Source of the DNA: a virus
Lineage: Duplodnaviria > Caudoviricetes
Length of the DNA stretch: 64,000 bases
IMG/VR virus record: IMGVR_UViG_3300030613_000008
Location: 29,508 to 93,507 of that record
Strand: one strand, 5' to 3'
This document shows positions 30,444 through 55,090 of this stretch, in pieces. A program made the translations under genes and the position numbers. The notes beneath the pieces were generated by a model that saw only the letters and a program-made list of their open reading frames with translations, had not been told where the DNA came from and searched no databases. The first letter of the stretch is position 1. Each line of letters starts with the position of its first letter.

Positions 30444-30565
30444 GTGCAATGCAGAACAATACTGGTCAGATTCTCCGATCGAAGCATCTGCGGGTAGACC
30501 CTCCCAAGGTTCTGCATTGCACCGCAGGTGCTTCGTTCAGAGAAGCTGACACGTTTGGAGGGTTC
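30444..30565 (+). ncRNA. C4/CI-like antisense hairpin in the replication-operon leader
   Basis: 29-bp stem 30465-30493/30522-30550; loop complementary to 30444-30457 (14/14) and to RBS 30555-30565. Confidence 0.65.
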
Positions 30566-34902: not shown

Positions 34903-35240
34903 GTGAGCAAATCGAAATCATCGTGTCCGAAGACCTGCCCTGGACGAACCGCAACGCGCCCCACCCCGGACACCGGGAGATTGAGCGCATCGTGGCGGTG
35001 TGTGAGGACAACCCGCGCGGAAACCATCCGAAGCGAGTCGTTGCCGCCAAGGTTGCGCTCGACAAGTGGATTGCCGAGAACGGCGGTCGCGTGCGGTCGC
35101 TGAACCCGACGAAGAACGACGACGGGTCGCCCGGCTTCCTCGCTGTCGTCGAGGGGTACAAGCCGCTACCGAGGCAGCGGCCGGTGGCGAGGGCCGGGGT
35201 GCATGCGCCAGCGCCGAACCGGCTGGTCAAGGGCAGGTAG
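34899..35240 (+). CDS. Hypothetical protein
   Basis: ATGA-coupled ORF. Confidence 0.5.
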   Translation: MSEQIEIIVSEDLPWTNRNAPHPGHREIERIVAVCEDNPRGNHPKRVVAAKVALDKWIAENGGRVRSLNPTKNDDGSPGFLAVVEGYKPLPRQRPVARAGVHAPAPNRLVKGR

Positions 35241-35243
35241 CCC

Positions 35244-35678
35244 GTGGCAACCGACCCCAACCGCCTCGCCCTGCTACGTCGCCTGTGCGACCTCGTGGGT
35301 GACCCAGAAGCTCCCTACGCCCACTCCATCCACGCGGAGCCGGGGCAGGTCTACGCGAGCAACGGGCCGCCCTTCCCGCCGCTCACGGTAATCGATTCGA
35401 CAACGACGCCCATCAAAGAGTTGATGTACCACCGGCAGACGGTGGCCGTAGAAATCCACCCCGGCGAGGAGCCCGAGCGCATCTCGGTCAACCGCATGGT
35501 CGGCGTGCTAGAGGACGGTCGAGAGGTGTGCATGGGCGAGGTGTGGGCGCTCCCGGACGTCATGTTGACGGCGGCCGAGCGCGGGCCGGTGAAGTGCGCG
35601 GCGTGCGGGATACTGGTCAGGGAGCTCCCCGTGTTCGATGACGCGGGGCTGGCCTACCACAAGGGGTGCGTGGGATGA
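35244..35678 (+). CDS. Hypothetical protein with C-terminal Zn finger
   Basis: CAACG...YHKGC. Confidence 0.5.
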   Translation: MATDPNRLALLRRLCDLVGDPEAPYAHSIHAEPGQVYASNGPPFPPLTVIDSTTTPIKELMYHRQTVAVEIHPGEEPERISVNRMVGVLEDGREVCMGEVWALPDVMLTAAERGPVKCAACGILVRELPVFDDAGLAYHKGCVG

Positions 35679-36025
35679 CGACCAAAGCGGACATCATCGC
35701 GGCGGTGCAAGCGGCGGCGGACGCCTACTACGTCGCCGACCCTGTGACGGGCGCGTCGGTAAAGCTCGGGCTCGGGTCCACCGGAACGGTCGTGACGATC
35801 GCGGGGCAGAAGTTCGACAGCGGCGCGGCGTGGGGGCCGGAGCCCGCCGCCATCCCGTGCCAGGTGGAAGGGCTCGCGGACTATCTGGACGCGGCGGGGC
35901 TCGGGAATATGACCGCGTTTCACGACAAGATTAACGAGCTTGTGGCGGCTCACGGACAGCTTGTCGCCGACTACAACGGCGGTATCGTCCCGACCACGGC
36001 CCTCCCTGTTTTGCCCCTCCCGTAG
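35675..36025 (+). CDS. Hypothetical protein
   Basis: ATGA-coupled ORF. Confidence 0.55.
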   Translation: MTTKADIIAAVQAAADAYYVADPVTGASVKLGLGSTGTVVTIAGQKFDSGAAWGPEPAAIPCQVEGLADYLDAAGLGNMTAFHDKINELVAAHGQLVADYNGGIVPTTALPVLPLP

Positions 36026-36103
36026 CGTCCCGACCAGCAACGGCGCGGGTTTGCGGGGCTGAAAAAAAACGACATAGGCCGTGTCGATTTTGCTGTTTCC
36101 GCC

Positions 36104-36137
36104 TTGACAGGCGCAAGGCGAGGCGCTATATATAGAG
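36104..36137 (+). promoter_or_regulatory. Strong sigma70-like promoter, copy 1
   Basis: TTGACA-17 nt-TATATA; shares AGGCGCTATATATAGAG with 49969. Confidence 0.8.
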
Positions 36138-36165
36138 CATGGGCAGCGAGAAAAAGGAGACGCAA

Positions 36166-36381
36166 ATGAAGATTCAGATTTGGAGTGGCGAGGGGGACGG
36201 ACCGGGAACGTGCGAGACGTACACGGCCGAAGAGTCGCACACCATGACGTGGCGCAAGTTGACCGCGCGTCTGACCCGCGAGCGCTGTGGTGGCGACCGA
36301 TGGGCCAAGGCGACGTGGGAGGACGGAGAGCCGGTTGTGCCGTCGCAGTTGGACCAGCGCCGCAGGTACGGTAGCAGGTAG
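36166..36381 (+). CDS. Small early protein
   Basis: AAAAAGGAGA RBS. Confidence 0.65.
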   Translation: MKIQIWSGEGDGPGTCETYTAEESHTMTWRKLTARLTRERCGGDRWAKATWEDGEPVVPSQLDQRRRYGSR

Positions 36382-36405
36382 TCCGAACGAAAAAGGAGAA
36401 TCACG

Positions 36406-36627
36406 ATGACCAAGCAACTGTCACACTACATTGTCGGGCGCACGGTGCGCGTGTTCACTGACCCACTCACGCGGAAGGACGAAGAGGGGACCGGAACGGT
36501 GAAGAAGATACTGCAAACGCCGGAGCAGACGGGCGTCACGGGGCAGTATTACGTCGAGGTGACATTCGGCGGCGAGCGCGCCCGATACGGTCGGTTCGTC
36601 AACGTCGGCGACGTGTTCGGGGTCTGA
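36406..36627 (+). CDS. Small SH3-like early protein
   Basis: AAAAAGGAGA RBS; VGRTVRV..GTGTV..YYVEVTF. Confidence 0.65.
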   Translation: MTKQLSHYIVGRTVRVFTDPLTRKDEEGTGTVKKILQTPEQTGVTGQYYVEVTFGGERARYGRFVNVGDVFGV

Positions 36628-36636
36628 GCACAACCC

Positions 36637-36680
36637 TCCCCGCCAGCCGCAGCCGGGTGCGAGCCCCGACCGGGGAGCCA
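36637..36680 (+). ncRNA. tRNA-like minihelix (acceptor-like stem, T-arm, GCCA)
   Basis: TCCCCG/CGGGGA stem, CGGG-TGCGAGC-CCCG arm, ends GCCA; no D or anticodon arm. Confidence 0.35.
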
Positions 36681-36706
36681 GTGACCGAACGAAAAAGGAG
36701 AACCCC

Positions 36707-37174
36707 ATGAGCAACAACATGAGCGCGGTTGAGATGCTGGCGACCTCGAAAGCGGTCGCGGAAAAGAACGTGAAGGCGGCGCGGTCGGCAATGGACCCCG
36801 GCACCTATCCGGTTGACGTGACGGTTCGCCTGTCGGGCGCGGTCACGGTCGGCGAGGATACGGACAAGGCTTCGACGTCCAGTCTCGTCTCCGAAGCGTT
36901 CCTGATTTTGGCCCTCAAGATGAGCGGTTGCACCCGCGAGCGGTCCATCCAAATCATCGAGGGGCTGGCGAGCGAGTTCGTCGGCAGCGCGGACAGGGAC
37001 GCGGCGAAGGCGGCTCGGGATGCGGCGGTCGCGGAGTTCGACGCGGACGGCGCGATGCGCGCGTTGTTCACCGGGCTCAAGGCGAGAATGCCCCGCACGC
37101 CGGTCAGCGGCGCGGTCAAGTTCGTGGGCGAGGTGGAAGTCATCGCAGCCGCGAGCGCCGAGAAGGCTGCGTAG
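36707..37174 (+). CDS. Hypothetical early protein
   Basis: AAAAAGGAGA RBS. Confidence 0.65.
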   Translation: MSNNMSAVEMLATSKAVAEKNVKAARSAMDPGTYPVDVTVRLSGAVTVGEDTDKASTSSLVSEAFLILALKMSGCTRERSIQIIEGLASEFVGSADRDAAKAARDAAVAEFDADGAMRALFTGLKARMPRTPVSGAVKFVGEVEVIAAASAEKAA

Positions 37175-37186
37175 TCTCCATCCCGT

Positions 37187-37215
37187 TTGACAAATCCAAC
37201 CGTCGGCCGTACATT
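37187..37215 (+). promoter_or_regulatory. Sigma70-like promoter
   Basis: TTGACA-17 nt-TACATT. Confidence 0.7.
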
Positions 37216-37223
37216 GCAATCAT

Positions 37224-37320
37224 GCTTCGCGCCTCCCAAGAAGCTCCCGACGGGCCACACGAGAGTCCCCCCACTCCCGTTGTCCACCTCACGTCGAGGG
37301 CTTCTTAGGGGGCGTGAGGC
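37224..37320 (+). ncRNA. Long leader hairpin carrying anti-GAGGTGGAC sequence
   Basis: 29-bp stem 37224-37252/37292-37320 with 4 G-U and 2 C-A; loop contains GTTGTCCACCTCA. Confidence 0.65.
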
Positions 37321-37333
37321 CGCAAGGGGATTC

Positions 37334-37876
37334 ATGCCGCACCGCTCTAAAGCCTTCCTCGCCTTCGTCCACACCGCGCGTCGTGACGGCCTGTGCGTGG
37401 CGTGCGAGTCGCGGACGTGGAGCCAACTTCACCATTTTGGATCCGATGGCGGCGCGGGGCTCAAGCCGTCGGACTATCTGGTTGTGCGGTTGTGCCGGGA
37501 GTGTCACGCGGATTCGGTCTCCGGACGAAAAATTCTGGCAATGCGCCGAGATGGGTTCGACCAGATGGCGGCCGACTATCTCGCCGACGCGGCGGACTCC
37601 CTGTCCCTGTGGTCCGCGCACCTCGAAAGCCGCCTTGCCGAATCCGAGGCGAACGGATGCGCTCGTGACGAGCTGGTCACGTGGCTCATGGATTACGACG
37701 CAACCGACCTGGCAGGCGCGGAGGCGTGGCTTCTCGCGTGGGCGCACCGTCGGCACGCGAACGCGCTAGAAGGGTTCTGCGAGGCGTTGGGGGAGGTTGT
37801 GAAGGCGGACAGTCTGGAAGGCGCGCGGTTCACCGCGGACCGGGCGCTAAAGGCGTGGCTTCCCGGTCAAACTTGA
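37334..37876 (+). CDS. DUF968/NinG-like His-Cys nuclease-fold protein
   Basis: RSKAFLAFV..CVAC..HH..GAGLKPSD..VRLCRECH. Confidence 0.7.
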   Translation: MPHRSKAFLAFVHTARRDGLCVACESRTWSQLHHFGSDGGAGLKPSDYLVVRLCRECHADSVSGRKILAMRRDGFDQMAADYLADAADSLSLWSAHLESRLAESEANGCARDELVTWLMDYDATDLAGAEAWLLAWAHRRHANALEGFCEALGEVVKADSLEGARFTADRALKAWLPGQT

Positions 37877-37907
37877 AAATCATTTCCGATTCTGATACTC
37901 ATTGAAA

Positions 37908-38354
37908 ATGGAGCGCGAATTCAGGCCCGTGGACGTGCGTCAACTGCTTCTGTCCATCCTACGTGCCGACGCGACTCCTCCGAAAATCCGACCGGGTCAC
38001 GTAGCGACGTGTGAGGGGATCACCGTGGCCCGGCGGTCCCTAACTGGTAAGCTATCCCTGAGATGCTTTCGCGCGGCGCACGGGACGGCACCTCAATACG
38101 CCTCGATACAGACTGCGCTCTGCAAGCTCGTGGGGGGATTCCCGACGTGCACGACGTGTGGCGGGACGGGGTGGCTGGCTGTCGACGGCAAGGAAGCGCG
38201 GGAGGCGGCCTTGAAGTCGCTGGCGTTCGGCGCTTTCCGGGGGATACGGTTCGAGGCGCTGTCATCGGCCGATGAACTCCTCAAGCAGTCGAGTATGATG
38301 GACCTCATATCAGGCGGGGCGAACTGTGGGCAGAACCAAGCTAAACCCCGCTGA
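37908..38354 (+). CDS. Hypothetical protein with CxxCxGxG motif
   Basis: CTTCGGTG. Confidence 0.45.
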   Translation: MEREFRPVDVRQLLLSILRADATPPKIRPGHVATCEGITVARRSLTGKLSLRCFRAAHGTAPQYASIQTALCKLVGGFPTCTTCGGTGWLAVDGKEAREAALKSLAFGAFRGIRFEALSSADELLKQSSMMDLISGGANCGQNQAKPR

Positions 38355-38949
38355 TAGACGCGCGGCGATACGAGCCCGCCAGGTTGCCTTGTTTAAGGCC
38401 ATTTGCTCCATCGTGCGAGAGGAGCGCCAGCCGCCAACGATGCTCATGCTCAAGGCGCGCACGGGCTACGGCAAGTGCATCGTCATAGCCGACCTCGCGG
38501 TGCTGATACGGCGCGGCACGGTCAAGCGAATCACGAACCTCTACGGCAAGGGGAGCCCCGGCTATTCGTGGGTGCCCACCTCGCGACGTCTCGCGCACGG
38601 TATCGGATTTTGCTCAACCGAGGGGTGCGACGCGGACCCGGAGCTTGTCGTGGCCGGGCACGCGCTCTGCGCTCAATGCTCTCGTGGCCCGGTGGACGCG
38701 GCGCACGGCGGCGGGCAGTTCCGCAGCGAGGAAGACGAGGACCGCACGGGGAGGGAGATGGTCGCGTCGAACTACAACGCCTCGTGCTACGCGGGCGGGT
38801 GGGAGCCAGCGGACGGCGAGAAGGAGCCGCGAGCGGTCCCGTTCCCGAGGATGGGCACCTCACTGTACAAGCGCAAGGTTCCAGCCCGCATCCCTGGCCT
38901 GTCGCTCCCCACGATGACCCCGTCCGAGGTTGAGGCCGAATTCGGGTAG
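38326..38949 (+). CDS. Winged-HTH (LexA-N-like) plus Zn-finger protein
   Basis: REERQPPTM..L..RTGY; CSTEGC...LCAQC. Confidence 0.5.
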   Translation: MGRTKLNPADRRAAIRARQVALFKAICSIVREERQPPTMLMLKARTGYGKCIVIADLAVLIRRGTVKRITNLYGKGSPGYSWVPTSRRLAHGIGFCSTEGCDADPELVVAGHALCAQCSRGPVDAAHGGGQFRSEEDEDRTGREMVASNYNASCYAGGWEPADGEKEPRAVPFPRMGTSLYKRKVPARIPGLSLPTMTPSEVEAEFG

Positions 38950-38984
38950 TTCGCGGGTGTGCTTACAAAACGTAACAACAAAAC

Positions 38985-39038
38985 TTGACACCGTGAAACG
39001 CTTGTGCTACCTATATCTCAGGCAGCGGGGAAACCCGC
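38985..39038 (+). promoter_or_regulatory. Promoter and 5' GAAA-tetraloop hairpin
   Basis: TTGACA-17 nt-TACCTA; GCGGG-GAAA-CCCGC. Confidence 0.55.
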
Positions 39039-39056
39039 ACAACGAGGAGGAGCAAG

Positions 39057-39257
39057 GTGGGCACGGTAGCGGTAGCGGTTGACACGCGGCGGGTCACGGC
39101 GTTGAGGGCCGTGCCAAGCGGCGAAGTCGAGAGGTTGCGGTTGCACGTAGAGCGACAGGCGGCGGTTATCCGGCGTCAAGAGCAGCGCATCGCGGACCTC
39201 ATCGACTTGGCCGAGCGCCAGCGTGTCGAACTGGACCGAGTGAAGGCGCGCGACTAG
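39057..39257 (+). CDS. Small coiled-coil protein
   Basis: RBS GAGGAGG. Confidence 0.55.
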   Translation: MGTVAVAVDTRRVTALRAVPSGEVERLRLHVERQAAVIRRQEQRIADLIDLAERQRVELDRVKARD

Positions 39258-39372
39258 CGATGGTTGCGCTGTACCTTCTCGCGGCGCTCGCCGCCGTGGT
39301 GCTATTGCTCGCCCTTGCGGACCTCGTGAGGAACGTTCGGAAACCTAGCAGCCTTGGGGATGGGAGGCGTTC

Positions 39373-39606
39373 GTGGCAAAGAGCAAAGTCAAGTTTTCGT
39401 GTCCGAAGTGTGGCGGCCCGCTCGTAGTCGAGCATCGGCACGGCGTTGTTGAGAGCGGCATGTCGGGGTGCCCCACGGTGTTCGCGTCGCAGGCCACGTG
39501 CCCCGCCTGTGGGCGCAAGGCGACGGCGCACCTATTCGGGCTCGGGCCGTCTCCGGTCGCGGCGCAAGCAGCGATGGAGAGGACGATTGAGGGGGCGAGA
39601 GTATGA
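39373..39606 (+). CDS. Small Zn-ribbon protein
   Basis: CPKCG, CPACG. Confidence 0.55.
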   Translation: MAKSKVKFSCPKCGGPLVVEHRHGVVESGMSGCPTVFASQATCPACGRKATAHLFGLGPSPVAAQAAMERTIEGARV

Positions 39607-39929
39607 ACGGGGAGACGTGCGCCAAGAGGGTCAGCAAGGGTGGACCTCGGTGGCATCGCGACTATGCCGACTGCGGCAAGCCCGCCAAGGGCATCGGCAA
39701 GGACGGCAAGCCGCTGTGCGGCATTCACCTTGCGGCGGAACGGAAGCGGGCGGAGACGGACGCGAAATACCAGGCGAAGTGGGACGGAGACAAAGCGTTC
39801 CGCGCCGAGGTCGCCGACTTCGCGAAGGCTCACGCACTCGGGTCACTTGCGGCACGGGACCACACGTACCGTTCGGTGTCGCTATCGTTGGACGAACTGG
39901 CGAAACTGGTCGAGAGGGCAGAGCGGTAG
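39603..39929 (+). CDS. Hypothetical protein
   Basis: ATGA-coupled; C..C..CGIH. Confidence 0.55.
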   Translation: MNGETCAKRVSKGGPRWHRDYADCGKPAKGIGKDGKPLCGIHLAAERKRAETDAKYQAKWDGDKAFRAEVADFAKAHALGSLAARDHTYRSVSLSLDELAKLVERAER

Positions 39930-39944
39930 CACTGAGGTGGACGC

Positions 39945-40202
39945 ATGATACGAAATCGAAAACTGAAAGTTTGGAACGGCCTAGTTTGGTTGAATCGAAA
40001 ACAGATTTCTTCTTCCATCTGTGCGTACTCTCAGAAGGACGCCGTGAACCTGCTAAACGAACTCGGATTCAGTTTCACACTCGGAGAGTTTCGAGACTAT
40101 TGGCCGCCGTGCTGGGGCAACTCCATGGACGGGATAGAGCCCGAGCGCGGGCTGTGGATTGAAATGGAGCGCGGCAAGCCGGAGCGATTCGTGCGCGCGT
40201 AA
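39945..40202 (+). CDS. Hypothetical protein flanked by a 12-bp direct repeat
   Basis: ACTGAGGTGGAC at 39931 and 40202. Confidence 0.6.
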   Translation: MIRNRKLKVWNGLVWLNRKQISSSICAYSQKDAVNLLNELGFSFTLGEFRDYWPPCWGNSMDGIEPERGLWIEMERGKPERFVRA

Positions 40203-40232
40203 CTGAGGTGGACAAGTCGGAAGGGGATTGCA

Positions 40233-41108
40233 GTGTCGAACTATCTCGAATTTCTGTCGGCGAAAACTCACCAAGGGTGCGAACACGGATTCGAACCGCT
40301 GTGGCTACCTAAGGTGCTTGCATTTGTGTTCTTCTTTTGTGTGACATGGTCCACAGAGGGATACAAGGTTGCTCAATGCGTTGGCTTTTACGTAGGAACC
40401 ATTGGTGAAGCAGCGGAATGGTATTCGATGGTGAACATCAAGGGCACGCCTGAGTTCGGATTCCTTTCTACCACATTGTTGGCAGGAATGTCCATCGCGC
40501 CTGCGAGCCTCCCTGGATTGTCTAATCCAATTCGGTCCATAATAGTATTGTTTGCCACCTCTCCAGCAAGGATTGTTGGAAGCCCTCCAATTCTCAGATT
40601 TCCATTTACCGAAGCATGCTCTGGAACAGAATTGTCGAGTACGATCCCTAGCGTGCCAACGGGGACGCATAAAATGATCTCCGCACACTTCACACATGAC
40701 TTCGATGCGTTCATCCTTGGGGGATGCACGACCAGTGAATGCGGATGCCATACACACCCTAGAGCAGTATTTACCAAGGGCGGATGGTGGCTTATAGAAA
40801 GACTCAGAACATACTGGACATGTTTTGTAGATGCCTTTCTTGGGAGGTCCACTAATCCAGTATTTTACTCGTTTCATAAAAAGATAATTGCACAATTACA
40901 CGATCATGTCAACACACTTGCACTCGGCTCGGAGTGCTACGGCGCCGTCATCAACGGTCGCAAGGCCATCGGTATCGAACTCAAGGAATCGTACTATCGG
41001 CAGATGGTGAAGAACGTCGCCGAAGGTGCGAAGACGGGGCGCGGATCCGAGCAAGTTCTTTTGCCGGGAGTCATCCCGACCGAGCCCATGATGGAGGCTC
41101 CCGAATGA
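40233..41108 (+). pseudogene. Chimeric remnant: helicase-like N-terminus + antisense HNH + DNA methyltransferase C-terminus
   Basis: Starts MSNYLEFLSAKTHQGCEHGFEPLWLP, ends GSECYGAVINGRKAIGIELKESYYRQMVKN; middle is the reverse of an HNH gene. Confidence 0.6.
40305..40895 (-). CDS. HNH endonuclease with two Cys-rich Zn domains
   Basis: CPVC..YCSRVC, CEVC..FCSRAC, NNPCWRGG, RDGHSCQQCG..DVHH..NL..LC..CH; AT-richer; own TTGACA upstream. Confidence 0.9.
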   Translation of the reverse strand: MCNYLFMKRVKYWISGPPKKGIYKTCPVCSESFYKPPSALGKYCSRVCMASAFTGRASPKDERIEVMCEVCGDHFMRPRWHARDRTRQFCSRACFGKWKSENWRASNNPCWRGGKQYYYGPNWIRQSREARRRDGHSCQQCGRKESELRRALDVHHRIPFRCFTNGSYVKANALSNLVSLCGPCHTKEEHKCKHLR

Positions 41109-47139: not shown

Positions 47140-47538
47140 ATGGACACGAACGAACGCATGGAGACGGAGCGCGACGAAGCACGCGGCAACGCTCGCATTC
47201 TGGCGCACTGTTACCAGACCGACAACCGCCCGCCTGCGCAGGTCGTCAAGGAATCGCTGGCCTACCCGGTCATGTCGGCATCGGTGCTGCACTCACGCGG
47301 ATTGCCGCAAGCATCGGAGCGCCCCGCGACCGTCCTCGATGCCGTCCGAGACTACATGTCCCGCAACGGCTACGACGCGCTGCGCCGGTCGGACGATGGC
47401 GAGGGGTGCGGTTGCTGCTTGTCCAAAGGGCTGGCCCCGTGCGCGTGTGAGATGCCGTCCGATTGTGAGATGGGGCATTGGGTGGAAGAGGACAACGACG
47501 GGGACGGCGGGGCTAGGCCGGGACCGAAACCCGCTTGA
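47140..47538 (+). CDS. Hypothetical Cys-rich protein
   Basis: NGYDAL..GCGCC..LAPC. Confidence 0.55.
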   Translation: MDTNERMETERDEARGNARILAHCYQTDNRPPAQVVKESLAYPVMSASVLHSRGLPQASERPATVLDAVRDYMSRNGYDALRRSDDGEGCGCCLSKGLAPCACEMPSDCEMGHWVEEDNDGDGGARPGPKPA

Positions 47539-47570
47539 CAACGGCCACTCGCGAGCCCTACGCTGGGGGT

Positions 47571-47765
47571 GTGGAAAGGTTAAACGATTCGCTGAAAATC
47601 AATAAGATGGTCGGCGTGAAAATGCAACAATCCGACGTGGATTACCTACGTTCGCTCGCACGCGCTTTGGATAGAAGCGTGTCGTCCACGGTCCGATTGA
47701 TAATCAGAACGGCAAGGGAACGGGGAATGGCGGGGTCCGAACAACCGAGAGGAGAGAAAACATGA
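47571..47765 (+). CDS. CopG-like ribbon-helix-helix protein
   Basis: MVGVKM..LRSLA..DRSVSSTVRLII; TTGACA at 47535. Confidence 0.65.
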   Translation: MERLNDSLKINKMVGVKMQQSDVDYLRSLARALDRSVSSTVRLIIRTARERGMAGSEQPRGEKT

Positions 47766-51343: not shown

Positions 51344-51354
51344 GAGGTGTCCAG

Positions 51355-51431
51355 GGTTCCCCCCTGGGCGGTGCGTCCGAGCCGGGTTAATCTCCTTTTC
51401 CTGGTTTGGGCGTACCGCCGAGGGGTGAACC
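51355..51431 (+). ncRNA. Long hairpin with anti-AAAAGGAGA loop
   Basis: 32-nt arms, 5 G-U, 2 mismatches; loop TTAATCTCCTTTT. Confidence 0.65.
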
Positions 51432-51446
51432 GAAAAGGAGAACACG

Positions 51447-53352: not shown

Positions 53353-53589
53353 GTGTTTCGCGCCTTCGAATCCTCGCTTACTCGCGGCCTCATTCGAGGT
53401 CAAGTGCTCACCTGCGAACTCGCGACGGCCTCTGCGGTCAACCTCGTGGAGCCGCAACGGGGGCCGTGGGTGCTCTTGACGGCGAGCGGAGAGCGGACGG
53501 TGTACCAGACGCCAATCGCCGCAGCCCGTGCGTGGCGCTATCTCATGCACTGGCAGATACAGATTGACAACGACAAACGGCCGTGCTAG
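53353..53589 (+). CDS. Hypothetical protein
   Basis: Coupled ORF ending in the promoter region. Confidence 0.4.
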   Translation: MFRAFESSLTRGLIRGQVLTCELATASAVNLVEPQRGPWVLLTASGERTVYQTPIAAARAWRYLMHWQIQIDNDKRPC

Positions 53590-53747
53590 CGATAGCACAA
53601 CAGGAGGTGGACAACATGGGGAAGACAACTGCTACCGAAAACAACTCCGAACAGGGATGATGAGGGGCAATCGGCCGATTCAAATGGCGCTTGACAACCG
53701 TGTCGGGATGCTGTACCTATATGTTGTTACAGCTGGAGGTGGGGAAA

Positions 53748-53885
53748 TTGGCTTCAGTTACAATTCCAGAAAAGACGAAATGTCTACGGTGTGGGCACGA
53801 ATGGACTCCGCGGCAAGCGGAAGTCACCCGCTGTCCGAAGTGCGGAAGTCCATACTGGAATCGTCCAAGGAAGAGTCCGAAGTGA
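53748..53885 (+). CDS. 45-aa Zn-ribbon protein coupled to TnpB
   Basis: RBS GGAGGTG, TTG start; CLRCGHEW.PR...CPKCGSPYW; GTGA overlap with tnpB. Confidence 0.75.
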   Translation: MASVTIPEKTKCLRCGHEWTPRQAEVTRCPKCGSPYWNRPRKSPK

Positions 53886-55090
53886 AATCCTACCGCACCG
53901 AGTTGAATTTGAACGATAAGCAGCGTACGGCGTGTTTGCAGCATGCAGGAGTGGCGCGGTTCGCGTACAACTTCGGACTGCGGCGCAAGCGGGAAGCATA
54001 CGAGACGACTGGCAAGAGTCCATCTGCCATCGATTTGCACCGGGAACTGAACGCACTCAAGAAGACCGAATTCCCGTGGATGTATGAGGTCAGCAAGTGC
54101 GCGCCCCAGGAAGCCTTGCGGAATCTGGACAAGGCGTTTGAAGGGTTTTTCCGTCGGTGCAAGGAGAAGTCGGCGCGGAAGGGGTACCCGAAGTTCAAGA
54201 GCCGGAAGCGCGGCATCGGATCGTTCACGTTGACGGGGGCAATTCACGTGACGGAACAGACTATCCAATTGCCGCGACTGGGTGTGTTGCGACTCAAGGA
54301 ACGTGGGTACTTTCCGACGGCGGCTCATATCACGCGGGCAACGGTATCGGAGCGAGTTGGTCGGTGGTTCGTGTCCATCCTGGTGGACGAGGAGCCGGTG
54401 CGTACAAAGGGCACGGAGGTACTCGGAGTGGACGTGGGCATCGCGCACTTGGCAGTGCTGTCGGATGGAACGGTGTTCGAGAATCCGCGAGCGTTGAAGA
54501 CGGCACAGGAGCGGGTGCGACGGTTGCAGAAGTCGGTGAGTCGGAAGGTAAAGGGATCTAGAAATCGGAAGAAGGCAGTCAACAAGTTGGCGAAGCAGCA
54601 TTATCGGGTGTCGTGCGTGCGGAGCAACGCGATTCATCAGGCGACGAACGCGATAGCCAAGCGAGCGTCGGTTGTAGGAATCGAGACGTTGAACGTGCGC
54701 GGGATGCTGCGGAATCACTGCTTGGCGGGTGCATTGTCCGACGCGAGCATGTCCGAGTTTTTACGACAGCTAGAATACAAGATAGAATGGACAGGTGGCA
54801 TAGTAGTGAAGGCGGATCGATGGTACCCATCATCAAAGACGTGTTCAGATTGTGGAACAGTAGTGAACGATTTACCGTTGTCGGTGCGGGAATGGTCCTG
54901 TGCCGAGTGCGGTATCGTCCATGATCGAGACGTGAATGCGGCGATTAACCTGAAGAACATGGCCGCGAGTTTCGCGGTGACAGCCTGTCGTCCTGGGAGC
55001 GCTGGTCCGACTCGCAAGAGAAGGACGAAACTTCTGGTTGGGCAGGAAATCAACACTAGACAGGGCACGTCCCTGGGAGGGTCAGTTTGA
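53882..55090 (+). CDS. tnpB: RNA-guided endonuclease TnpB
   Basis: ARFAYN, GYPKFK, RuvC GVDVG / IETLNV / DRDVNAA, SSKTCSDCG and CAECG Zn ribbon. Confidence 0.95.
   Translation: MKSYRTELNLNDKQRTACLQHAGVARFAYNFGLRRKREAYETTGKSPSAIDLHRELNALKKTEFPWMYEVSKCAPQEALRNLDKAFEGFFRRCKEKSARKGYPKFKSRKRGIGSFTLTGAIHVTEQTIQLPRLGVLRLKERGYFPTAAHITRATVSERVGRWFVSILVDEEPVRTKGTEVLGVDVGIAHLAVLSDGTVFENPRALKTAQERVRRLQKSVSRKVKGSRNRKKAVNKLAKQHYRVSCVRSNAIHQATNAIAKRASVVGIETLNVRGMLRNHCLAGALSDASMSEFLRQLEYKIEWTGGIVVKADRWYPSSKTCSDCGTVVNDLPLSVREWSCAECGIVHDRDVNAAINLKNMAASFAVTACRPGSAGPTRKRRTKLLVGQEINTRQGTSLGGSV

What the first reader, a model, noticed from the sequence alone, without database searches (positions are those of the whole stretch)
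37187..37336. Promoter-proximal hairpin antisense to the GAGGTGGAC gene class
Seen: transcription from TTGACA-17-TACATT would start at the base of a 29-bp stem with 4 G-U pairs. Its 39-nt loop holds GTTGTCCACCTCA (37279-37291), a 12-nt exact complement of GAGGTGGACAAC (53604) and TGAGGTGGACAA (40204) and a 9-10-nt complement of the other copies. It also holds GAGTCCCC, complementary to its own downstream RBS GGGGATTC. The loop can sub-fold to expose ACCTCA and CCCCCC. Inference: a trans-acting translational repressor with distant targets.
Basis: partly seen in the sequence, partly recalled or inferred. Interest (0 to 1): 0.75.

Follow-up and report, generated by a model that had tools for sequence, protein, structure and literature searches.

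The report
Phage leader hairpin antisense to ribosome sites
A soil phage makes a conserved ~100-nt hairpin RNA just after an early promoter. Its two exposed loops match, and co-evolve with, the ribosome-binding region of a helicase gene 3 kb downstream, so it is probably an antisense translation regulator like phage P1's C4 RNA.

Summary
TTGACA-17-TACATT (37187-37215) is followed by a 29-position stem (27 pairs, 4 G-U) enclosing a 39-nt apical region with GTTGTCCACCTCA.

I found six relatives in phage contigs from metagenomes and Acidobacteriota (Terriglobia, Solibacteraceae) genome bins. Thirteen of 38 stem pairs show compensatory changes. The anti-SD-like GUCCACCUC is kept and predicted unpaired in 6 of 7.

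The region is not coding: the HNH-like gene starts at the same MP(H/Y)R in all homologues.

The key result concerns the site at 40204, which lies 19 nt upstream of the SD of an SF2-helicase gene.
- The apical region is a two-part complement of that start region: bulge to UGAGGUGGACAA, C-rich tip to GGGGAUU.
- In the diverged relative L095, all three sites (loop, adjacent RBS, helicase site) carry the compensating variant GUUCACCUC / GAGGUGAAC.
- L095's second half pairs over 14 bp, including 3 G-U.
- Matched pairs give -36 to -43 kcal/mol, mismatched pairs -24 to -35.

The 16S tail of the host class (GGAUCACCUCCUU) does not explain the GAC extension.

The architecture resembles P1/P7 C4 RNA, but there is no Rfam homology. 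Repression, action in trans rather than in cis, and regulation of the whole GAGGTGGAC class remain untested. The scan has not found this on other DNA.

The parts
37172..37186 (+). Conserved block upstream of the -35 hexamer (TAGTCTCCATCCCGT). It includes the stop codon of the upstream gene 36707-37174.
   Evidence: 20 nt are identical in G001. ATCCCGTTTGACA also occurs at the paralogous promoter G000:5717 and at G001:3086.
37187..37215 (+). Sigma70-type promoter TTGACA-17-TACATT.
   Evidence: An equivalent TTGACA-17-nAnnnT lies 6-10 nt before the hairpin in G001, L095, L096, L097 and L099, but not in L098.
37222..37224 (+). Predicted transcription start, an ATG 6 nt after the -10 hexamer. The paralogous promoter has the same spacing to the start of a 101-aa leaderless gene.
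   Evidence: The short ORF that starts here (28 codons, stop at 37306-37308) is not conserved: 7 codons in G001 and no such ATG in L095-L097.
37224..37252 (+). 5' arm of the long stem.
37261..37278 (+). Tip hairpin GAGAGU-CCCCCC-ACUCCC with a six-C loop at 37267-37272. It is complementary to the GGGGAUU of the SDs at 37326 and 40223.
   Evidence: The 17-nt block CGAGAGTCCCCCCACTC is identical in G001 and L098.
37279..37291 (+). Anti-SD-like element GUUGUCCACCUCA, in a 3'-side asymmetric internal loop.
   Evidence: GUCCACCUC is invariant in 6 members and reads GUUCACCUC in L095. P(unpaired) is 0.55-1.0 for CCACCUC in the window and higher in L095, L096, L097 and L099.
37292..37320 (+). 3' arm of the long stem.
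37324..37336 (+). SD AAGGGGAU and ATG of the HNH/DUF968-like gene (37334-37876).
   Evidence: The same start is used in all homologues. PHROG HNH hits are weak. In L095, L096, L097 and L099 this RBS is instead GAGGTG(G/A)AC, a 9-11-nt complement of the loop.
40204..40235 (+). Candidate target: the start region of the SF2-helicase-derived gene 40233-41108. It comprises a distal site UGAGGUGGACAA (40204-40215), the SD AAGGGGAU (40221-40228) and GTG (40233).
   Evidence: A 75-nt block is 100% identical to G001 while the flanks differ. The two-part duplex gives -40.0 kcal/mol, with 0 of 1000 loop shuffles as good. It ranks 2nd of about 110 predicted start regions in G000 and G001. The L095 orthologous site co-varies.
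53604..53618 (+). GAGGTGGACAAC-ATG, an RBS of the GAGGTGGAC class and a 12-nt complement of the loop. Others of the class are at 39934, 60566, 60888 and 62500.
   Evidence: Five such RBSs also occur in the related contig G002. Their regulation by the hairpin is untested.

Best explanation
The element is a leader-encoded antisense RNA. The promoter at 37187 starts transcription 0-2 nt before a rod-like hairpin of about 97 nt.

The long stem (27-31 bp in all members) is a scaffold that displays two pyrimidine-rich single-stranded elements:
- the tip loop (CCCCCC here);
- a 3'-side bulge (CCACCUCA).

These two elements pair, antiparallel and in matching order, with two purine-rich sites in the translation start region of an SF2-helicase gene 2.9-3.6 kb downstream on the same strand. 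The sites are a distal GAGGUGGACAA box and the SD proper, AAGGGGAU. Pairing would cover the SD and block 30S binding.

The gene next to the hairpin (HNH-like) carries one or the other box as its own SD. It, and possibly other genes with GAGGUGGAC or AAGGGGAU SDs, may be secondary targets.

**Shown:** the structure, its conservation and covariation, predicted exposure of the bulge, and the complementarity with its co-variation.

**Inferred:** that the promoter fires, that pairing occurs in vivo, that its effect is repression, and whether the hairpin acts as a processed small RNA (for example after RNase III cleavage of the stem) or as the 5' end of the same polycistronic mRNA.
For: 1. **A family of seven.** The members are the window, G001, L098/G002, L095, L096, L097 and L099. 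All are long hairpins in the same place relative to the HNH-like gene.
2. **Stem covariation.**
   - The window/G001 pair shows 7 double compensatory changes, 3 G-U-compatible single changes and 0 broken pairs.
   - Five sequences show 13 of 38 pairs with double changes.
   - Paired cells are 92% against 82% in shuffles (0 of 500) and 41-56% when partners are slid.
3. **Selection on apical sequence.** The apical motifs are more conserved than the stem: 29 of 32 nt are identical between the window and G001.
4. **Exposure.** The bulge is predicted unpaired in 6 of 7 members.
5. **Co-variation in L095.** The loop reads CGUUCACCUC. The only two GAGGTGRAC sites on the + strand of that 6.9-kb contig are the adjacent RBS and the box 20 nt upstream of the helicase SD, and both read GAGGUGAACG. 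Window and G001 have C in the loop and G in the targets.
6. **A second pairing half kept by different sequences.**
   - In L095, UGGUGAUCUCCUUU pairs with GAAGGGGAUCAUCA over 14 bp. Its three departures from DNA-level identity are all G-U pairs.
   - In the window, GAGUCCCC pairs with GGGGAUU.
   - L096 and L097 carry CCCCUUCCG, the complement of the window's CGGAAGGGG.
7. **Matched versus mismatched energies.** Matched duplexes give -40.0, -35.9 and -43.0 kcal/mol; mismatched give -28.4, -23.6 and -34.6. Shuffled loops reach the observed value in 0, 7 and 0 of 1000 trials.
8. **Rank among start regions.** The helicase start region ranks 2nd of about 110 in both G000 and G001. It is itself unstructured.
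9. **Not explained by the ribosome.** The 16S 3' tail of the host class, including the G002 bin, is GGAUCACCUCCUU. The GAC/AAC extension therefore pairs with the loop, not with the ribosome.
10. **Portability.** In G001 and G002 a different gene follows the hairpin. This argues against a device tied to the adjacent gene and for an operon-level or trans role.
Against: - No expression data exist. Only DNA runs hold this sequence.
- No terminator or known processing site follows the hairpin, so a discrete small RNA is unproven.
- A genome-wide RNAduplex scan finds coding G-rich sites that pair as well as or better than 40204, for example window 14164 at -48 kcal/mol. Energy alone does not single out the target.
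- Co-variation rests on two independent lineages (window/G001/G002 versus L095).
- G002 keeps the hairpin but has no homologue of this helicase.
- In the window the helicase gene is reduced to a 291-aa remnant, although its start region is intact.
- L098 lacks the recognisable promoter.
- Both partners resemble the anti-SD and SD, which inflates chance complementarity.
Confidence: 0.5

Rival explanations
1. A purely cis-acting structural leader. The long double-stranded stem would be an RNase III processing site or a 5'-terminal stabiliser of the operon mRNA, as at the T7 early R sites, the lambda N leader or the ompA 5' hairpin. The anti-SD-like loop sequences would be incidental.
For: - The stem is 27-31 bp, two or more helical turns, and starts 0-10 nt from the predicted start in 6 of 7 members.
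- The same phage has two more long intergenic hairpins next to RBSs, at 30465-30550 and 51355-51431. The latter is conserved in G001.
- The cassette is portable in front of different genes.
Against: - A generic stabiliser or RNase III site does not need a 17-nt and an 11-nt invariant apical block.
- It does not explain the three-site co-variation in L095 or the 26-bp two-part match to the helicase start region.
- L098 keeps the hairpin without the promoter, so it need not be 5'-terminal.
- This reading is compatible with the main explanation as a maturation step.
Confidence: 0.2
2. A protein- or RNAP-binding regulatory RNA. The conserved tip and bulge would be bound by a phage protein or by RNA polymerase, as in nut/boxB-N, HK022 put or a translational operator. 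The result would be antitermination or autoregulation.
For: - The position is promoter-proximal.
- The apical sequence is conserved on a co-varying stem.
- The tip is an 18-nt near-palindrome, GAGAGU-N6-ACUCUC.
Against: - No convincing intrinsic terminators lie downstream: 13 terminator-like hits in 28-48 kb against 19.8 in shuffles.
- The tip sequence is not conserved in L095, L096, L097 or L099, whereas complementarity to the SD region is.
- There are no further copies of the palindrome in G000 or G001.
Confidence: 0.1
3. A DNA-level element. The loop and the 40204 region would be inverted repeats for site-specific inversion or recombination, or the hairpin a cruciform or operator. Repeat homogenisation would then explain the co-variation.
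For: - The loop and helicase-site sequences are inverted repeats 2.9 kb apart.
- They stay matched in two lineages.
Against: - Stem and intermolecular mismatches at the DNA level are nearly all G-U pairs on the + strand RNA. There are 4 in the window stem, and 3 of 3 in the L095 second half.
- The assembled contigs of the source sample show no inversion joint at the repeat (weak evidence).
- I did not look for a recombinase gene near it.
Confidence: 0.04

Closest known systems
C4 antisense RNA of phages P1 and P7 (immI operon; Citron & Schuster 1990, cited in PMC8198154; Rfam C4 family)
   Same: - Encoded on the same strand and upstream of its targets, directly after the operon promoter.
- Two short exposed segments pair with two sites that cover a downstream RBS.
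- Relatives carry matched loop and target variants, the basis of P1/P7 specificity.
   Different: - No sequence or structure homology: there is no Rfam hit at E <= 5.
- One 97-nt rod with a tip and a bulge, rather than the C4 fold.
- The target is an SF2 helicase gene 3 kb away plus the adjacent HNH-like gene, not icd/ant.
- The host is probably Acidobacteriota.
- RNase P processing and Rho-mediated polarity are unknown here.
C-rich-loop small RNAs that mask G-rich SDs (6C/B11 of Actinobacteria, RsaE/RoxS, RNAIII; named from my own knowledge)
   Same: A CCCCCC or UCCC loop on a stable stem, complementary to GGGG-type SD sequences.
   Different: - No Rfam match.
- Phage-encoded, in a leader, without a terminator.
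- A second CCACCUC element resembles the 16S 3' tail.
RNase III sites in phage early leaders (T7 R0.3 to R1.3, lambda N leader; from my own knowledge)
   Same: A long imperfect double-stranded RNA hairpin between a promoter or upstream gene and the next RBS.
   Different: Those sites have no loop complementarity to distant RBSs. Cleavage here is untested.

Membership tests
C4 antisense RNA (P1/P7, Rfam C4 family) | Match to the family covariance model | tested here: not met
   cmscan of 35000-41000 at E <= 5 gave only COG3943 and mir-160 chance hits.
C4 antisense RNA (P1/P7, Rfam C4 family) | Encoded in the leader of the transcript that also carries its target, on the same strand | tested here: inconclusive
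   The arrangement fits. A promoter lies at 37187, all genes are on the + strand, and there is no terminator between 37320 and 40233. Transcripts were not observed.
C4 antisense RNA (P1/P7, Rfam C4 family) | Two exposed segments complementary to two sites overlapping the target RBS | tested here: met
   The bulge pairs with the distal box and the tip with the SD, in the window, G001 and L095.
C4 antisense RNA (P1/P7, Rfam C4 family) | Matched loop and target variants in related phages | tested here: met
   L095 has GUUCACCUC with GAGGUGAAC at two sites; the window and G001 have GUCCACCUC with GAGGUGGAC. This rests on only two independent lineages.
C4 antisense RNA (P1/P7, Rfam C4 family) | Processing by RNase P and control of an icd/ant antirepressor operon | not testable with these tools
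   Processing cannot be tested here. The targets appear to be helicase and HNH-like genes, not icd/ant.
Intrinsic terminator / attenuator | GC-rich hairpin followed by a U-tract | tested here: not met
   The 3' flank is CGCAAGGGGAUUCAUG, and the terminator scan gives no hit at 37320.
RNase III processing hairpin | About 20 bp or more of double-stranded RNA stem, cleaved by RNase III | tested here: inconclusive
   The stem length criterion is met, at 27-31 bp. Cleavage is not testable.
Protein-coding leader / N-terminal extension | A conserved reading frame across relatives | tested here: not met
   - In G001 the HNH-like gene starts at the same ATG, directly after another gene's stop.
- The short ORFs over the hairpin differ in frame and length.

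The most novel reading that the evidence does not exclude
The phage uses a small set of leader hairpins as a translational code. Each would display anti-SD variants that read SD extensions lying beyond what the ribosome pairs with (GAGGUGGAC, AAGGGGAU, AAAAGGAGA). Sets of genes scattered over the genome would thereby be switched together after the early promoters fire. The hairpins at 30465, 37224 and 51355 would be three channels of this system. The window-type and L095-type variants would be natural orthogonal pairs.
Probability: 0.15. Interest if true: 0.8.

Novelty: new variant of a known kind. Interest (0 to 1): 0.58.

Why it matters
Few phage regulators are known that are encoded on the same strand as their targets and mask them by antisense pairing; P1/P7 C4 is the classic case. 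None is described for phages of Acidobacteriota, a major soil phylum with almost no phage genetics.

If the reading is right:
- The element gives a compact and predictable regulator: one scaffold stem and two programmable exposed segments.
- The window-type and L095-type variants are naturally occurring matched pairs that could be tested directly for orthogonality.
- It would show that nucleotides flanking the SD can be selected for pairing with a regulator rather than with the ribosome.

Tried and rejected
**Searches that found nothing useful**
- Rfam scan of the region: only chance hits.
- blastn of 36700-37900 against GenBank phages: no match.
- Pattern scans of IMG/VR and JGI metagenomes with loop, promoter and hairpin+RBS patterns: only G001, or chance hits.
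- The 80 IMG/VR loci encoding 53-66% identical helicases have unrelated start regions and no hairpin by the covariance model R1. The pairing is therefore confined to a narrow clade.
The wider co-variation test could not be run.
- No RNA holder is listed among public runs. Laying the two DNA runs showed no variants in the hairpin.

**Ideas rejected**
- Leaderless leader peptide. The ATG sits 6 nt after the -10, as at the leaderless gene G000:5759. I rejected it as the main function because the ORF is 28 codons here and 7 in G001. The ATG is also not at that position in L095-L097, and the frames over the C-tract differ.
- Pseudoknot with the adjacent SD in one molecule. The SD starts 3-10 nt after a 27-31-bp stem, and the loop is about 80 Å away, so this is sterically impossible.
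- The host 16S tail as the partner of the GAC extension. The tail is GGAUCACCUCCUU in 77 of 121 genomes of the class, including G002. One of those genomes, G077, is flagged unpublished, and the claim does not depend on it.
- A palindromic operator in the tip: no other copies.
- A genome-wide RNAduplex scan does not make 40204 an outlier.

Full report
**Context.** The window is bases 29508-93507 of a 93.5-kb IMG/VR virus record (98% complete, 62% G+C) with genes almost all on the + strand. Close relatives are:
- G001, an 86-kb viral contig;
- a 93-kb contig binned in a Terriglobia MAG (G002/L098);
- a more distant relative in a Solibacteraceae MAG (L099).

The host is therefore probably an acidobacterium. 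The finding lies between a 155-aa gene (36707-37174) and an HNH/DUF968-like gene (37334-37876). It sits inside a block of small DNA-metabolism genes.

**Observation.**
- TTGACA-17-TACATT lies at 37187-37215.
- The arms 37224-37252 and 37292-37320 form 27 pairs, 4 of them G-U, with two mismatches.
- The apical region is 39 nt. Folding gives -57.6 kcal/mol, z = -3.3.
- GTTGTCCACCTCA lies at 37279-37291, with exact 12-nt complements at 40204 and 53604.
- GAGGTGGAC occurs 12 times against 0.69 expected. Five copies are SDs 1-3 nt before an ATG; several others are Glu-Val-Asp codons.
- A 12-nt match alone is at chance level here (E = 0.84), so the case depends on comparison.

**The promoter.**
- The phage has four TTGACA-N17-TANNNT sites, all on the + strand.
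- One, at G000:5724, is a paralogue sharing ATCCCGTTTGACAAnTCCAACCG.
- It drives a 101-aa winged-helix-like gene whose ATG lies 6 nt after the -10, in both phages. That mRNA is leaderless.
- At 37187 an ATG sits at the same distance, so transcription probably starts at about 37222, two nucleotides before the stem.
- The short ORF from that ATG is not conserved: 28 codons here, 7 in G001, and no such ATG in L095-L097. I do not think a leader peptide is the point.

**Not coding.** In G001 the HNH-like gene starts at the same ATG, directly after another gene's stop. The promoter-hairpin cassette lies about 700 nt further upstream, in front of an unrelated 83-aa ORF.

**A family of seven.** Homologues of the HNH-like protein led to L095, L096 and L097 and to L098 and L099. 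Each carries a long hairpin in the same place, and five also carry a TTGACA-17-nAnnnT promoter 6-10 nt upstream.
- Window against G001: 7 double compensatory changes, 3 G-U-compatible single changes, and no broken pair.
- Five sequences: 13 of 38 pairs have double changes.
- Paired cells are 92% against 82% in shuffles (0 of 500) and 41-56% with slid partners.
- Single changes such as G-C to G-U keep pairing only on the + strand RNA.
- A covariance model finds exactly one copy per phage.

The apical motifs are better conserved than the stem, with 29 of 32 nt identical between the window and G001. The element GUCCACCUC sits in a 3'-side asymmetric internal loop in every member and is predicted unpaired in six of seven.

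**The partner.** In L095, L096, L097 and L099 the SD of the adjacent HNH gene is GAGGTG(G/A)AC, a 9-11-nt complement of the bulge. L095 is the informative case.
- Its loop reads CGUUCACCUC.
- The only two GAGGTGRAC sites on the + strand of that 6.9-kb contig both read GAGGUGAACG.
- One is the adjacent RBS. The other lies 20 nt upstream of the SD of an SF2/SNF2 helicase gene.
- That second site is orthologous to window 40204, where the box is UGAGGUGGACAA and the loop has C.

The complementarity is two-part and in matching order.
- In L095, 12 bp (UUCGUUCACCUC with GAGGUGAACGAA) are followed by 14 bp (UGGUGAUCUCCUUU with GAAGGGGAUCAUCA). Together they reach the start codon.
- The three DNA-level mismatches in the L095 second half are all G-U pairs.
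- In the window, 12 bp are followed by GAGUCCCC pairing with GGGGAUU.
- L096 and L097 carry CCCCUUCCG in the tip region, the complement of the window's CGGAAGGGG. Their helicase regions are not on the short contigs.

| Loop | Start region | Duplex energy (kcal/mol) |
|---|---|---|
| window | own | -40.0 |
| G001 | own | -35.9 |
| L095 | own | -43.0 |
| window | L095 | -28.4 |
| G001 | L095 | -23.6 |
| L095 | window | -34.6 |

Shuffled loops reach the observed value in 0, 7 and 0 of 1000 trials. Three further points support the target:
- Among about 110 predicted start regions, the helicase one ranks second in both G000 and G001.
- It is not itself structured.
- It sits in a 75-nt block that is 100% identical between the window and G001 while the upstream genes are unrelated.

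**The ribosome is not the explanation.** The 16S 3' tail in the host class, including the G002 bin, is GGAUCACCUCCUU. GAGGUG pairs with it. The following GAC or AAC does not (G-U or A-U, then A-A), yet it is Watson-Crick complementary to the loop's GUC or GUU.

**Limits.**
- No RNA data exist.
- Nothing marks a 3' end after the hairpin. It may act as the 5' end of the same long mRNA, or after processing; the long stem would suit RNase III.
- Within one molecule, pairing with the adjacent SD is sterically excluded while the stem stands.
- A genome-wide duplex scan finds G-rich coding sites that score as well.
- G002 keeps the hairpin but has no homologue of this helicase.
- In the window the helicase gene is a 291-aa remnant with an intact start region.
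- G001 has the hairpin but no RBS of the GAGGTGGAC class apart from the non-RBS helicase site. G000 and G002 have five each.
- The co-variation rests on two lineages.

**Comparison.** The closest known system is the C4 antisense RNA of P1 and P7. It is encoded in the leader of the operon it controls. Two exposed segments pair with two sites over a downstream RBS, and loop and target variants are matched between relatives (PMC8198154, citing Citron & Schuster 1990). The present element works like that on the evidence available, but it is not a member:
- it has no Rfam hit;
- its fold is different, one rod with a tip and a bulge;
- its targets and host phylum are different.

**Verdict.** This is a real, conserved, structured leader RNA. 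The most likely function is antisense masking of the helicase start region, and probably the HNH one (confidence about 0.5). Regulation of the whole class is possible but unsupported. I classify it as a new variant of a known kind.

Noticed in passing
G000:5717-6064 (outside the window; L002:1501-1850) and G001:3086-3430: A paralogue of the 37187 promoter drives a 101-aa winged-helix-like protein. Its ATG lies 6 nt after the -10 hexamer in both phages, so the mRNA is leaderless. The protein is 97% conserved.
   Followed up: partly
window 40233-41108: The 291-aa ORF keeps only the first 29-40 residues of the 476-aa SF2 helicase of G001 and L095. Those are joined to a C-terminal part that matches DNA about 2.8 kb further on in G001. 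This looks like an internal deletion that left the 5' UTR and first codons 100% identical to G001.
   Followed up: partly
window 51353-51433 and L011:4639-4750: A second long hairpin (-65 kcal/mol) is 81-89% conserved in G001. Its loop UCUCCUUUUC is complementary to the adjacent RBS GAAAAGGAGA. In G001 the loop and RBS still match over 9 nt in a slightly shifted register. It gives a weak hit to model R1 (21.8 bits).
   Followed up: partly
window 25972, 28075, 37324, 40221, 60770: AAAGGGGAT-type motif: AAGGGGAT occurs 5 times, all on the + strand, against 1.1 expected. At least four copies lie 4-5 nt before a start codon. This is a second SD variant, complementary to the C-rich tip of the hairpin.
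   Followed up: partly
window 53528-55090: A TnpB gene (OrfB_IS605 plus the Cas12f-like TNB domain). The GAGGTGGACAAC-ATG at 53604-53618 is out of frame with it and seems to belong to the AAA-ATPase gene that the element interrupts.
   Followed up: partly
window 47535-47765: A fourth TTGACA-17-TACGCT promoter, followed by a small ribbon-helix-helix-like ORF (about 47608-47765). I read this by eye and did not search it.
   Followed up: no
L095:1438-1542: Another long hairpin lies immediately upstream of the L095 promoter (27 bits with model R1). Its function is unknown.
   Followed up: no
L098/G002 contig C12 and L099: Whole phage-like contigs of this group are binned in Terriglobia and Solibacteraceae MAGs. 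This is the only host clue, and binning of a free phage contig is weak evidence.
   Followed up: partly
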